DNA from: a virus
DNA length: 12,026 bases
IMG/VR virus record: IMGVR_UViG_3300031565_005162
Reading direction: 5' to 3' (one strand)
Shown here: one piece after another, positions 8,877 through 9,884 of the stretch
How the letters are laid out: each line of letters begins with the position of its first letter
Position numbering within the stretch: the stretch's first letter is position 1
The notes under the pieces: generated by a model
Seen by the model: only the letters and a program-made list of their open reading frames with translations
What the model was told of the DNA's origin: nothing
Database searches by the model: none
Program-made: the position numbers and the translations under genes

Positions 8877-9884
8877 TTATAGTATTTCATATTTAACTTT
8901 AGGTAAATTACCAGCGAGGATTGCATTTCCACAGGTTATCATTCCTAAATCCTCATCATAACTAGGGACGAATACGATTACATCGAATCCTGCTTTCTTT
9001 AGATCTCTTTCCGCATCCTGATATGGAGTAAAAGCTTCATAGCCATTTGTAGTAATAATTCCATTATCATCGCAGCTTTTTGTTTTATGTAAAGGAGTTA
9101 TTTTAACCATAAATTTATTAGGGTCAAAAAGCTTTCTTAGTTTTTCAGCATCTATAATATACTCATCTGCTAAAGCAAAATTAAGAGCATATTTTCTTCC
9201 ATGAGGGAACGGAAGATATTTACCTATTTCAGATATCTCTTCCAGAGTTAAAGCATTACCGGAAAACATCTCATTTCTTTGAGCTTCGTCCGTGCTATTA
9301 ATAGAAAATTGTAATCCGGCTTCTCCTTGATATAATCTGTTCTTGATATCCAAAGTCCAGATTTGTAGAAATTTTACTAGATGCTTATTATTTTTAGGCA
9401 TCATTGTAGAAACAACTGGATGAACAGTTCCACTTTTGCTCCAGAAATCATAAATATTTCTTTTAAGACAAGCTGCTACATCCAAGACATTTCCATTAAA
9501 AGTAGGTTCCCCCATTCTTGCAAAGTGGATATTAAGTCTTTTGGAATAATCTAACTCAGGATGTAATGCCAGACCAGATTTAATCTGATTTAGCATATCA
9601 TAATAAGTAGCATTCGTTCCAGGACCGACTAAAGGAACATCACAGAATTTACAACCCATTGAACACCCATATTGAGTGCTGATTGTAATTACCATTTTTT
9701 CAGTGAGAGGCATGATGTCTCCGTTTGGGACACCGTTTAGATCTTTTGTAATTCCGAGAAAATCTGCTTTTATATTTAAGCTTTTTCCGTAATCTCCAAC
9801 TACCAGAAATTCAATGGGGCCTTTTTCGCCCTGCATTATACAAATATTTCCTGTTGGTACCTTTACATTTTTAATTAAATTCAT
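8877..9884 (-). CDS. RlmN/Cfr-family radical SAM RNA (adenine-C2/C8) methyltransferase homolog (335 aa)
   Basis: CX3CX2C motif GCSMGCKFCD (C74/C78/C81) matches the RlmN/Cfr VGCxxxCKFC box. ARMGEPTFN compares with RlmN MGMGEPLLN. The C-terminal MITCGNAILAG compares with RlmN DAACGQLAG (methyl-carrying Cys355). KITPLHKT compares with KINLIPWNP. The N-terminus is about 50 aa shorter than E. coli RlmN. Confidence 0.7.
   Translation of the reverse strand: MNLIKNVKVPTGNICIMQGEKGPIEFLVVGDYGKSLNIKADFLGITKDLNGVPNGDIMPLTEKMVITISTQYGCSMGCKFCDVPLVGPGTNATYYDMLNQIKSGLALHPELDYSKRLNIHFARMGEPTFNGNVLDVAACLKRNIYDFWSKSGTVHPVVSTMMPKNNKHLVKFLQIWTLDIKNRLYQGEAGLQFSINSTDEAQRNEMFSGNALTLEEISEIGKYLPFPHGRKYALNFALADEYIIDAEKLRKLFDPNKFMVKITPLHKTKSCDDNGIITTNGYEAFTPYQDAERDLKKAGFDVIVFVPSYDEDLGMITCGNAILAGNLPKVKYEIL

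What the first reader, a model, noticed from the sequence alone, without database searches (positions are those of the whole stretch)
8877..9884. RlmN/Cfr-like radical-SAM methyltransferase lacking the N-terminal domain and the resolving cysteine, embedded in the tRNA island near an A2503-loop-like RNA
The CX3CX2C box, the MGEP motif and the C-terminal CG(N/Q)xxAG cysteine place this protein in the RlmN/Cfr family (m2A2503 or m8A2503 of 23S rRNA; RlmN also modifies A37 of tRNAs). As aligned by eye, the position equivalent to E. coli Cys118 is Thr (ITISTQYGC). Cys118 sits 7 residues before the first cluster Cys and resolves the covalent enzyme-RNA intermediate. The protein also starts about 50 aa later than RlmN. 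The gene lies 35 nt downstream of tRNA-Glu, in an island of tRNAs, and about 4 kb from an RNA segment containing the exact A2503 context CUCGAUGUCG. An RlmN-family enzyme without the resolving Cys would be predicted to trap its RNA substrate, or to use a different chemistry. Co-occurrence with a PTC-loop look-alike suggests a dedicated enzyme-substrate or enzyme-decoy pair, possibly a mobile ribosome-modification or antibiotic-resistance-like module. This is speculative.
Basis: partly seen in the sequence, partly recalled or inferred. Interest (0 to 1): 0.75.

Follow-up and report, generated by a model that had tools for sequence, protein, structure and literature searches.

The report
Truncated RlmN-like radical SAM phage enzyme
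A phage gene encodes a stripped-down relative of the ribosome-methylating enzymes RlmN/Cfr that lacks their RNA-binding domain and one catalytic cysteine. Its relatives sit next to NAD+ salvage genes, not ribosomal RNA, so it probably acts on a small NAD-related molecule by a reaction that is still unknown.

Summary
The ORF is real: 8877-9884, minus strand, 335 aa.
- CX3CX2C at C74/C78/C81, and the MGEP motif.
- A C-terminal CGN cysteine, C318, which aligns with RlmN C355.
- Thr67 at the RlmN Cys118 position.
- No RlmN N-terminal domain.

A family profile hits RlmN/Cfr over the full core (E 1e-22 to 1e-18). An AF2 model (pLDDT 93) matches RlmN best.

It still fails RlmN/Cfr membership (27 bits against cut-offs of 290-550). 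It belongs to a large uncharacterised family: PHROG 24834, more than 7,000 proteins, 557 viral contigs. None of 217 members has the resolving Cys, and 98% keep the methyl-carrier Cys.

The "A2503-like RNA" is a 10-nt chance match. It is absent from the sister phage and lies beside a GOLLD RNA.

Context points away from rRNA:
- Relatives 50-54% identical sit inside NrtR-type NAD-salvage operons (PncB-PncA-rSAM-NadE).
- Phage relatives 65-75% identical abut NARP1-like, Nampt or NadE genes.
- Distant members are fused to ECF-transporter S components, isochorismatase or MTA/SAH nucleosidase.

Best reading: an RlmN-derived small-molecule radical-SAM enzyme serving NAD+-linked salvage or counter-defence. 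The reaction is unknown, and tRNA modification remains a live rival.

The parts
8877..9884 (-). Gene for a 335-aa radical SAM protein: an RlmN/Cfr-like catalytic core and a member of PHROG 24834
   Evidence: ORF list. phrog_24834 E 1e-148, full length. Family profile against PDB RlmN/Cfr E 1e-22 to 1e-18. AF2 pLDDT 92.8 and best Foldseek hits RlmN.
9642..9665 (-). Codons C74-C81, the CX3CX2C [4Fe-4S]/SAM motif (GCSMGCKFC)
   Evidence: Invariant in the family. Aligns with RlmN C125/C129/C132. Codons read directly.
9684..9686 (-). Codon Thr67, the position equivalent to the resolving Cys118 of E. coli RlmN
   Evidence: Alignment with E. coli RlmN. At this column the family has T165, I16, N9, V6, M6, A5 and so on, with no Cys in 217 members.
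9504..9515 (-). Codons M124-P127, the MGEP motif (SAM amino/carboxylate-binding 'GGE-like' motif; family consensus HFARMGEP)
   Evidence: Invariant or nearly invariant columns. Aligns with RlmN MGMGEP.
8925..8933 (-). Codons C318-G319-N320. C318 is the equivalent of the methyl-carrier Cys355 of RlmN (Cys338 of Cfr).
   Evidence: Aligned to RlmN ACGQ in the profile and MAFFT alignments. Cys is present in 165 of 169 family members that cover the column.
9717..9797 (-). Residues 30-56 (GDYGKSLNIKADFLGITKDLNGVPNGD). This N-terminal insert is specific to the 'CGN' subgroup that holds the window protein, its phage relatives and the NAD-operon proteins.
   Evidence: Present in that subgroup and absent from the 'CGQ' subgroup and from RlmN. 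Lower pLDDT (78-88) in the model.
9918..9990 (-). tRNA-Glu(UUC) immediately upstream, 33 nt before the start codon. Context only, not shown to be functionally linked.
   Evidence: ARAGORN and Rfam. tRNA adjacency is not conserved across the family, though it recurs in some lineages.
4598..4607 (-). The 10-mer CTCGATGTCG (the 'A2503 context'). Examined and rejected as part of the system.
   Evidence: Single exact hit. Absent from sister contig L091, where the flanks are conserved. 4 chance hits in unrelated loci. No excess folding stability.

Best explanation
The gene encodes a free-standing catalytic core descended from the RlmN/Cfr lineage (class A radical SAM methylases).

Shown:
- It keeps the [4Fe-4S]/SAM site and the mobile C-terminal cysteine (C318).
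- It has lost the N-terminal helical (RNA-handling) domain and the second, resolving cysteine.
- It belongs to a large, uncharacterised family that is common in phages.

Inferred:
- The family works on a small nucleobase or nucleotide metabolite tied to NAD+ salvage, not on 23S rRNA.
- In cells the gene is part of NrtR-type NAD salvage operons.
- In phages it is an accessory gene of the early / counter-defence region that helps keep or rebuild the NAD+ pool.
- Its place in this phage's tRNA island reflects the clustering of accessory genes.

Most likely chemistry (inferred, weakest step):
1. SAM is cleaved reductively to the 5'-deoxyadenosyl radical.
2. C318 takes part either as a methyl carrier, as in RlmN (methyl-Cys, then a thiomethylene radical that adds to an electron-poor ring carbon of an adenine or pyridine nucleotide), or as a hydrogen-atom donor.
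3. The intermediate is released without a second cysteine.
For: Homology and anatomy:
-.
- 98% retention of the C355-equivalent Cys and 0% retention of the C118 equivalent.

Fusions that imply a small-molecule substrate:
- ECF-transporter S component (QueT family, 37-40 bits against GA 33.7) fused to rSAM, in P0154, P0155, P0158 and P0184 and in P0271-P0275.
- rSAM fused to isochorismatase, in P0206, P0211 and P0269.
- rSAM fused to MTA/SAH nucleosidase (224 bits against cut-off 169), which removes SAH and 5'-dA.

Operons in cellular genomes, tight and on the same strand:
- PncB-isochorismatase-rSAM-NadE-DUF5662-NrtR in six gut alphaproteobacterial loci.
- Isochorismatase-PncB-Nudix-rSAM-NadE-NadD-CinA/PncC-...-NrtR-NAD kinase in Firmicutes.
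- rSAM-NMNAT-NrtR in a Woesearchaeote contig.
- NadE upstream of the rSAM in a Peregrinibacteria contig.
- These proteins are the closest cellular relatives of the window protein, at 47-52% identity in the MAFFT alignment and 49-54% by tblastn.
- In a Pfam census of 144 neighbour clusters, the NAD-salvage families were the recurrent metabolic neighbours (isochorismatase 3, CTP_transf_like 3, NAPRTase 2, NAD_synthase 2, NUDIX 2). No TGT or IU-nucleoside hydrolase appeared among the 25 families listed.

The 'CGQ' subgroup:
- TrxR-like flavoprotein-rSAM-isochorismatase.

Phage relatives:
- L141 (75% identical): rSAM, then a PRPS-like gene, zeta/HAD and a NAMPT-like gene.
- L103 (69%): a NAMPT-like gene 650 nt downstream.
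- L138 (65%): isochorismatase and NadE upstream.
- L089 (75%): a NARP1-like cluster 3.5 kb upstream.
- In all, 4 of 33 dereplicated viral lineages have such a neighbour.
- Tad2-like anti-Thoeris genes lie about 3 kb away in 15-16 loci.
Against: - No biochemical evidence exists, and I could name no reaction that NAD salvage is missing.
- NAD genes are near the rSAM in only about 10% of dereplicated lineages. Most phage copies sit among replication and recombination genes with no metabolic partner.
- tRNA arrays are about as frequent a neighbour in phages (4 of 33 lineages). The homologue sits inside a tRNA array in an independent recoded gut-phage lineage as well.
- RNA ligase, PNK and RtcB genes also recur nearby.
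- The transporter-fused members are only 33-37% identical to the window protein, so their substrate class may not transfer to it.
- No background-controlled enrichment test was run.
- The window itself contains no NAD gene.
Confidence: 0.45

Rival explanations
1. It is an RNA adenine C-methyltransferase like RlmN. It would modify A37 of phage or host tRNAs (for example tRNA-Glu) or an rRNA adenine, with some other group doing the job of Cys118.
For: - It is homologous to RlmN/Cfr along the whole core, including the methyl-carrier Cys.
- JGI annotates many members as 23S rRNA (adenine2503-C2)-methyltransferase.
- The gene lies inside tRNA arrays in the window lineage and in an independent recoded gut-phage lineage, L052/L064/L036.
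- RNA-repair genes (RNA ligase, PNK-like, RtcB) recur nearby.
- E. coli RlmN methylates A37 of tRNA-Glu, among other tRNAs. The RlmN-tRNA-Glu crosslinked structure is described in PMC9692996.
- MTA/SAH nucleosidase fusions and one LuxS neighbour fit a methyl-transfer reaction that produces SAH.
Against: - It lacks the N-terminal helical domain and the resolving Cys that the literature calls indispensable for RlmN/Cfr (PMC9692996).
- It scores 27 bits against cut-offs of 290-550.
- Only 2 of the 80 best viral loci have any tRNA within 8 kb.
- Fusions to ECF-transporter S components and to isochorismatase are hard to reconcile with an RNA substrate, as is operon membership in NAD salvage.
- A separate phage family that is much closer to RlmN (115-119 bits) and keeps both cysteines exists for that role.
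Confidence: 0.2
2. It is a radical SAM base lyase of the queuine-lyase (QueL) type. It would salvage a 7-deazaguanine precursor (queuine to preQ1) for tRNA-Q or for phage DNA modification.
For: - Distant members are fused to an ECF S component that passes the Pfam QueT threshold.
- C. difficile QueL is a radical SAM enzyme encoded next to an ECF S component and a queuosine hydrolase (PMC11130926 and PMC11570991).
- A single catalytic Cys would suit a lyase that needs a hydrogen-atom donor.
- A QueE-like radical SAM gene and a GTP cyclohydrolase I gene occur near homologues of the separate two-Cys phage family in two large phages.
Against: - The QueL sequence could not be obtained, so homology is untested.
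- The genome scan returned no C. difficile locus.
- No TGT, QueK-type (IU) nucleoside hydrolase or other queuosine genes appeared among the neighbour families listed.
- No preQ1 riboswitch lies upstream of three fusion genes.
- The PNP-like domain of the fusions is an MTA/SAH nucleosidase, not a queuosine-cleaving enzyme.
- The nearest cellular relatives of the window protein are in NAD operons, not queuosine operons.
Confidence: 0.1
3. An RlmN-family enzyme without the resolving Cys forms a dedicated pair with a nearby PTC-loop look-alike RNA, as substrate, decoy or covalent trap. Together they would make a mobile ribosome-modification or resistance-like module.
For: - The resolving Cys is indeed absent. 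C118A RlmN is known to stay crosslinked to RNA (PMC9692996).
- The exact 10-mer is present 4.3 kb away on the same strand.
Against: - The 10-mer is not conserved in the sister phage, which keeps the gene, the synteny and the flanking RNA element.
- 4 chance occurrences were found in about 2 Mb of unrelated loci.
- The segment shows no excess structure.
- The structured RNA nearby is a GOLLD RNA (163 bits).
- Hundreds of family members occur with no such RNA, or any tRNA, nearby.
- A single-turnover trap does not fit membership in cellular NAD operons.
Confidence: 0.02

Closest known systems
RlmN (dual-specificity 23S rRNA m2A2503 / tRNA m2A37 methyltransferase; PDB 3RFA, 5HR7, 6FZ6)
   Same: - Same radical SAM core fold, with the extra beta strands before the cluster motif.
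- CX3CX2C, MGEP, SxxxxD/ExxR and (K)I(T/N)xxP motifs in the same order.
- A C-terminal CG(Q/N) cysteine that aligns with the methyl carrier C355.
   Different: - No N-terminal helical domain (RlmN residues 1 to about 84).
- Thr, not Cys, at position 118, and the same across the family.
- A 27-residue N-terminal insert.
- 18% identity; TIGR00048 score 27 against a cut-off of 290.
- Genomic partners are NAD-salvage genes and transporters, not ribosome or tRNA genes.
Cfr (23S rRNA m8A2503 methyltransferase, PhLOPSA resistance; PDB 9P0P)
   Same: The family profile aligns over the whole Cfr core (E 2e-19), including the C338-equivalent cysteine.
   Different: - No C105 equivalent and no N-terminal domain.
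- Cfr models score 26-27 bits against cut-offs of 468-550.
- No association with resistance elements was seen in any locus.
Phage 'mini-RlmN' proteins with both cysteines (e.g. Vibrio phage 496E54-1 VP496E541_P0168; Stenotrophomonas phage BUCTxx99 WPH68542, annotated 'prohibitin family protein'; Aeromonas phage Ahp1)
   Same: - Phage-encoded RlmN-like cores that also lack the N-terminal domain.
- One lies directly after PRPS-like and NAPRTase-family genes, and another lies inside a tRNA island.
   Different: - Only 23-25% identical to the window protein.
- Much closer to RlmN (TIGR00048 115-119 bits).
- They retain the Cys118 equivalent (TVMCISTQ) as well as GGGCGQLW.
QueL, queuine lyase of Clostridioides difficile (CD1684, UniProt Q186P0)
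   Same: - A radical SAM enzyme that acts on a free base.
- Encoded beside an ECF S component. Distant members of the present family are fused to a QueT-family S component.
   Different: - Sequence relationship is unknown, because the sequence was not obtainable here.
- No queuosine genes were seen near the present family.
Phage NAD+ reconstitution pathways NARP1 (Adps + Namat), NARP2 (Nampt + Nmnat) and NARP3 (PnuC-like + NadR-like)
   Same: - Phage accessory genes that deal with NAD+.
- Close relatives of the window gene lie next to NARP1-like or Nampt genes.
   Different: - The radical SAM protein is not homologous to any NARP component.
- The NARP papers I could read do not mention it.
- The window itself has no NARP gene.

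Membership tests
RlmN/Cfr (class A radical SAM methylases) | CX3CX2C motif ligating the radical SAM [4Fe-4S] cluster | tested here: met
   C74/C78/C81 align with RlmN C125/C129/C132. Invariant in the family.
RlmN/Cfr (class A radical SAM methylases) | Methyl-carrier cysteine in the flexible C-terminal loop (RlmN C355, Cfr C338) | tested here: met
   C318 (TCGN) aligns with RlmN ACGQ in the HMMER profile and MAFFT alignments. 165 of 169 members have Cys here. Whether it is actually methylated is not testable here.
RlmN/Cfr (class A radical SAM methylases) | Second conserved, resolving cysteine (RlmN C118, Cfr C105), described as indispensable (PMC9692996) | tested here: not met
   The window has Thr67. 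0 of 217 family members have Cys at this column. No other non-cluster Cys is conserved; C271 is present in only part of the subgroup.
RlmN/Cfr (class A radical SAM methylases) | N-terminal helical accessory domain preceding the core | tested here: not met
   The protein starts at the equivalent of RlmN residue ~85. Profile alignments cover RlmN 84-347 (3RF9 chain numbering 104-367) only.
RlmN/Cfr (class A radical SAM methylases) | Score above the curated family cut-offs (TIGR00048 RlmN; NF000424 / TIGR04432 / NF011024 Cfr) | tested here: not met
   27.4, 27.2, 26.4 and 25.5 bits against cut-offs of 290, 530, 550 and 468. Only residues 58-148 matched.
RlmN/Cfr (class A radical SAM methylases) | RlmN-type three-dimensional fold | tested here: met
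   AF2 model with pLDDT 92.8. The best PDB matches are RlmN 6FZ6, 3RFA and 5HR7 (E 3e-10 to 7e-10, TM 0.58-0.64). The next family is at E 1e-5.
RlmN/Cfr (class A radical SAM methylases) | C2/C8 methylation of A2503 of 23S rRNA or A37 of tRNA | not testable with these tools
   Needs biochemistry. Context evidence argues against an RNA substrate.
PHROG 24834 (phage protein family, function unknown) | Full-length match to the family HMM | tested here: met
   E 1.3e-148, 495 bits, residues 1-332 matched to profile positions 1-331 of 336.
Pfam Radical_SAM (PF04055) | Score at or above the gathering threshold | tested here: not met
   17.9 bits against 29.5 for the window protein. Many close homologues carry a precomputed PF04055 hit, and the motif and fold are present.
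QueL (queuine lyase) | Sequence homology to C. difficile CD1684 (Q186P0) | not testable with these tools
   The sequence was not retrievable from the literature or collections.
QueL (queuine lyase) | Gene clustering with a queuosine hydrolase (QueK), an ECF S component and dependence on TGT | tested here: inconclusive
   An ECF S component (QueT family) is fused in distant members. No IU-nucleoside hydrolase or TGT appeared among the neighbour families listed (25 of 111 bacterial and 25 of 55 viral families shown). No preQ1 riboswitch lies upstream of the fusions.
Phage NAD+ reconstitution pathways (NARP1/2/3) | Being one of the defining enzymes (Adps, Namat, Nampt, Nmnat, PnuC-like, NadR-like) | tested here: not met
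   The protein is a radical SAM enzyme and matched none of these in the Pfam/NCBIfam scans. It is only a neighbour of such genes in L089, L103, L141 and L175.

The most novel reading that the evidence does not exclude
The family is an undescribed radical SAM step in NAD+ metabolism. It would be an RlmN-derived enzyme, with one catalytic cysteine and no RNA-binding domain, that modifies or liberates an adenine or pyridine nucleotide. Cells would use it in NrtR-controlled salvage operons. Phages would borrow it as a new component of NAD+-centred counter-defence, alongside NARP1/NARP2. This would also be the first class A-type radical SAM enzyme that works on a small molecule and resolves its intermediate without a second cysteine.
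Probability: 0.3. Interest if true: 0.85.

Novelty: new variant of a known kind. Interest (0 to 1): 0.6.

Why it matters
Class A radical SAM methylases are defined by two cysteines and have only RNA substrates (RlmN, Cfr). This is a very large family, mainly in phages and gut or reduced-genome microbes. It keeps the methyl-carrier cysteine, has lost the resolving cysteine and the RNA-binding domain, is fused to vitamin-type transporters, and sits in NAD salvage operons. Together these features suggest either new chemistry on a free nucleotide or base, or a new way of resolving the class A intermediate.

If the NAD link holds, it adds an unrecognised enzyme to bacterial NAD salvage. It would also add to the phage toolkit against NAD+-depleting immunity (Thoeris, SIR2, DSR), which is an active field.

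There is a practical point too. Thousands of these proteins are currently auto-annotated as '23S rRNA (adenine2503-C2)-methyltransferase' or 'prohibitin'. The first label is probably wrong and the second is evidently wrong.

Tried and rejected
1. QueL identity. I tried to obtain C. difficile CD1684/Q186P0 through papers, a genome-collection scan and a profile search seeded with the transporter-fused domains. No sequence and no C. difficile hit came back, so the question stays open.
2. Riboswitch upstream of the ECF-S-rSAM fusion genes as a ligand clue. None was found in L008, L184 or L185.
3. The PNP_UDP_1 domain of the fusions as a hint of a nucleoside substrate. Rejected, because it is an MTA/SAH nucleosidase above the curated cut-off, that is, by-product removal.
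4. The TrxR-like flavoprotein partner as a trans-acting disulfide resolver. I saw no CxxC in P0237 by eye. It is more likely an electron supply for the cluster, so it says little about the substrate.
5. C271 as a substitute resolving Cys. It is only partly conserved and is Ala or Ser in the NAD-operon proteins and L103.
6. Comparing pI and charge with RlmN to separate an RNA from a small-molecule substrate. Uninformative.
7. The tRNA island as a conserved context. Only 2 of the 80 best viral loci have tRNAs, but the context recurs in L091 and L052/L064/L036. I kept it as support for the rival.
8. H89-93-like folding of 4500-4720. z = 0.08.
9. The 10-mer as a conserved element. Rejected.
10. 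A TerD-like domain in the 586-aa neighbour, guessed by eye. No Pfam or PDB support.
12. Papers on NARP1, NARP3 and RyR-domain proteins were checked for a radical SAM partner. None mention one.
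Full report
**1. What is in the window**

All long ORFs are on the minus strand. The window carries:
- eight tRNA genes;
- a GOLLD RNA at 5150-5630 (163 bits, gathering score 150), inside an ORF-free, GC-rich block at 4200-6170;
- a major-vault-protein-like gene at 976-3435, a SiaC-family gene and several ORFs with no family match.

The same protein is encoded on 26-30 kb metagenome contigs. A sister contig, L091, has an 83%-identical protein and the same synteny of tRNAs, rSAM, SiaC, GOLLD and MVP-like gene. The window is therefore a piece of an uncultured phage.

**2. The observation**

ORF 8877-9884 (-) encodes 335 aa with GCSMGCKFC (C74/C78/C81), HFARMGEP and a C-terminal ITCGN (codons checked).

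I fetched E. coli rlmN from MG1655 and aligned it with the window protein and 21 relatives. The column mapping is RlmN C118 to T67, C125/129/132 to C74/78/81, and C355 to C318. HMMER alignments of the single protein and of a 42-member family profile to RlmN and Cfr structures give the same register.

The protein has nothing equivalent to RlmN residues 1 to about 84.

**3. Is it RlmN/Cfr?**

Evidence for shared descent:
- As a single sequence it barely touches the curated models. RlmN TIGR00048 scores 27 bits against 290, the Cfr models score 25-27 bits against 468-550, and Pfam Radical_SAM scores 17.9 against 29.5.
- A profile of 42 diverse family members hits RlmN (6FZ6, E 9e-22), Cfr (9P0P, 2e-19) and E. 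coli RlmN (4e-18) across the whole core, with the CGQ motif aligned.
- An AlphaFold2 model (pLDDT 92.8, pTM 0.92) finds RlmN structures first (E 3e-10, TM up to 0.64). The next radical SAM family is five orders of magnitude weaker.

So it shares descent and fold with class A methylases.

That class is defined by two conserved cysteines, and C118 (C105 in Cfr) is reported as indispensable for resolving the enzyme-RNA crosslink (PMC9692996). Among 217 family members with an intact cluster motif, none has Cys at that column (T165, I16, N9, V6, M6, A5...). In contrast, 165 of 169 keep the C355-equivalent Cys, and E25 is invariant. No other cysteine is conserved. A defining feature is tested and not met, so I do not file it as RlmN/Cfr.

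**4. What family is it?**

- It matches PHROG 24834 (function unknown) end to end (E 1e-148).
- More than 7,200 proteins match in the 5.8-billion-protein set.
- 662 representatives at 50% identity match at E <= 1e-3.
- 557 IMG/VR contigs and 198 loci in 185,579 species genomes encode relatives.

Two subgroups are visible:
- A 'CGN' group with a 27-residue N-terminal insert. It holds the window protein, its phage relatives and the NAD-operon proteins.
- A 'CGQ' group from Elusimicrobia, Myxococcota and others.

The distant phage hits (Vibrio, Stenotrophomonas and Aeromonas phages, 23-25% identical in the MAFFT alignment) turned out to be a different family that is closer to RlmN. They score 115-119 bits on TIGR00048 and retain both cysteines, although they too lack the N-terminal domain.

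**5. The RNA 'partner'**

- CTCGATGTCG occurs once, at 4598-4607 (-).
- It lies 540 nt 3' of the GOLLD match, inside a ~400-nt stretch (about 4380-4745) that is conserved with L091 and has no Rfam match.
- Within that stretch, the segment carrying the 10-mer is deleted in L091, and the 10-mer is absent from L091 altogether.
- About 2 Mb of unrelated loci gave four further exact hits, close to the number expected by chance.
- The 4500-4720 segment folds no better than shuffled sequence (z = 0.08).

I conclude that the resemblance to the A2503 loop is coincidental.

**6. Context across the family**

(a) Fusions.
- An ECF-transporter S component (Pfam QueT, 37-40 bits against GA 33.7 in two proteins) precedes the rSAM domain in at least nine cluster representatives.
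- Two of them add a C-terminal domain, which in P0158 is an MTA/SAH nucleosidase above its curated cut-off.
- Three proteins fuse rSAM to an isochorismatase-family hydrolase, and one fuses it to a thioredoxin-reductase-like flavoprotein.

(b) Cellular operons. I clustered neighbour ORFs from the 80 genomic loci and annotated them with Pfam.
- Six gut alphaproteobacterial loci have PncB-isochorismatase-rSAM-NadE-DUF5662-NrtR.
- Firmicutes/Bacilli loci have isochorismatase-PncB-Nudix-rSAM-NadE-NadD-CinA(PncC)-methyltransferase-NrtR-NAD kinase.
- A Woesearchaeote contig has rSAM-NMNAT-NrtR.
- A Peregrinibacteria contig has NadE upstream of the rSAM.
- These genes are packed tightly on one strand. 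Their rSAM proteins are the closest cellular relatives of the window protein, at 47-52% identity in the MAFFT alignment and 49-54% by tblastn.
- In the CGQ subgroup the pattern is TrxR-like flavoprotein-rSAM-isochorismatase.

(c) Phages.
- Among 33 viral lineages dereplicated at 90%, four have NAD genes within 8 kb.
- L141 (75% identical) is followed by a PRPS-like gene, zeta/HAD and a NAMPT-like gene. L103 (69%) is followed by a NAMPT-like gene. L138 (65%) is preceded by isochorismatase and NadE. Jumbo-phage contig L089 (75%) has a PRPS-like/NADAR/RyR/NAMPT-like cluster 3.5 kb upstream.
- In a large group of gut phages the gene is followed by a DUF4406 (nucleoside 2-deoxyribosyltransferase-like) gene, with a Tad2-like anti-Thoeris gene about 3 kb upstream.
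- Otherwise the neighbours are early, replication and recombination genes.

(d) tRNAs and RNA repair.
- Only 2 of the 80 best viral loci have a tRNA within 8 kb.
- The gene also sits inside a tRNA array in an independent lineage of recoded gut phages, L052/L064/L036, which carry suppressor tRNAs.
- RNA ligase, PNK-like and RtcB genes recur nearby.

**7. Interpretation**

Four lines of evidence favour a small-molecule substrate connected with NAD+ salvage over an RNA substrate:
- the loss of the RNA-handling domain;
- fusion to vitamin-type transporter subunits and to an amidohydrolase;
- fusion to the enzyme that clears SAH and 5'-dA;
- operon membership in complete Preiss-Handler / NrtR units in several phyla.

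The phage copies next to NARP1-like, Nampt or NadE genes suggest that phages use it in the same metabolic arena, where NAD+ depletion is a common host defence (10.1101/2024.02.11.579819). The NARP1, NARP3 and RyR papers I could read do not mention a radical SAM partner.

The chemistry is inferred, not shown. The near-universal retention of the C355-type cysteine, the SAH nucleosidase fusions and one LuxS neighbour fit methyl-Cys chemistry. In that case a thiomethylene radical would add to an electron-poor heteroaromatic carbon (adenine C2/C8 or a pyridinium carbon), and release would occur without a second thiol. A hydrogen-donor role for the cysteine, as in a lyase or epimerase, is equally allowed.

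I could not identify which step of NAD salvage would need such an enzyme. That is the main weakness.

**8. Rivals**

- A tRNA or rRNA methylase remains possible (confidence 0.2), because tRNA arrays and RNA-repair genes are also recurrent neighbours and the fold is RlmN's.
- A QueL-type queuine lyase (0.1) is suggested by the QueT-family fusions. It could not be tested because the QueL sequence was not retrievable, and neither queuosine genes nor preQ1 riboswitches were seen.
- The enzyme-decoy or trap model with the PTC-like RNA is effectively excluded (0.02).

**9. Verdict**

The RNA pairing and the resistance idea are not supported.

The object is a member of a very large, uncharacterised branch of the RlmN/Cfr lineage with one cysteine. 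Its comparative genomics points to NAD+-linked small-molecule chemistry. I rate it a new variant of a known kind, of above-average interest, with a concrete set of experiments that could settle it.

Noticed in passing
window 5150-5630 (-), within the ORF-free block 4200-6170; also L091 12463-12941: GOLLD RNA (RF02032): 163 bits against gathering score 150, full model 1-416, with an embedded tRNA-like element at 5486-5557 (39 bits). It is conserved in the sister phage contig (157 bits). Here the GOLLD lies between a tRNA island and a vault-protein-like gene.
   Followed up: partly
window ~4380-4745 (-); L091 ~13260-13700: A ~400-nt ORF-free element conserved between the window and sister contig L091, with no Rfam match at E <= 1. 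By eye it ends in a T-arm/acceptor-like 3' piece (~4385-4420). It is a possible undescribed structured RNA next to GOLLD.
   Followed up: partly
window ~4790-4850 (-): By eye, a 7-bp acceptor-like stem (GTCCGAG...CTTGGAC) encloses a GGTTCGAATCC T-loop motif. This looks like a tRNA-like minihelix that ARAGORN does not call. Another GGTTCGAACCC motif lies at ~5110-5125.
   Followed up: no
window 976-3435 (-); L004 16451-18910; L091 15189-17690: An 819-aa protein with Pfam Vault_3 and MVP_shoulder domains and E 1e-13 to eukaryotic major vault proteins in the PDB. A Band_7/flotillin gene lies further along the contig (L004/L005 1-1484). A vault-like shell protein encoded beside a giant RNA (GOLLD) and tRNAs in a phage is striking.
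   Followed up: partly
window 6173-7933 (-): A 586-aa ORF between the SiaC-like gene and the GOLLD block, with no Pfam, PHROG or PDB sequence match. It is conserved in L004.
   Followed up: partly
window 8132-8512 (-): A SiaC-family (PF09345) partner-switch phosphoprotein homologue, an unusual gene for a phage. It is conserved two small ORFs downstream of the rSAM in the window lineage and one small ORF downstream in L091.
   Followed up: no
L091 19275-19348; L052 1421-1493 and 4225-4295; L064; L036: Suppressor tRNAs (anticodons CUA and UUA) occur in phage-like contigs that carry the rSAM homologue, which suggests stop-codon-recoded phages. In L052/L064/L036 the rSAM gene sits directly inside the tRNA array.
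   Followed up: partly
L175 3120-6813 (Vibrio phage 496E54-1); L002 4881-5840; L174 5866-6816: A separate phage family of N-terminally truncated RlmN-like proteins that keep both catalytic cysteines. In the Vibrio phage the gene follows PRPS-like and NAPRTase-family (NARP1-like) genes directly. In Stenotrophomonas phage BUCTxx99 it lies in a tRNA island and is annotated 'prohibitin family protein' in the record.
   Followed up: partly
L028 7717-8214 and five other alphaproteobacterial loci: DUF5662 is a fixed member of the PncB-PncA-rSAM-NadE-NrtR operon. In the Firmicutes version its place is taken by NadD and CinA/PncC. It may be an unrecognised NAD-pathway enzyme.
   Followed up: no
window 10672-10834 (-): A weak tmRNA-like Rfam hit (10.7 bits, E 0.69) in an ORF-poor stretch between a small ORF and tRNA-Leu. 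Probably noise.
   Followed up: no
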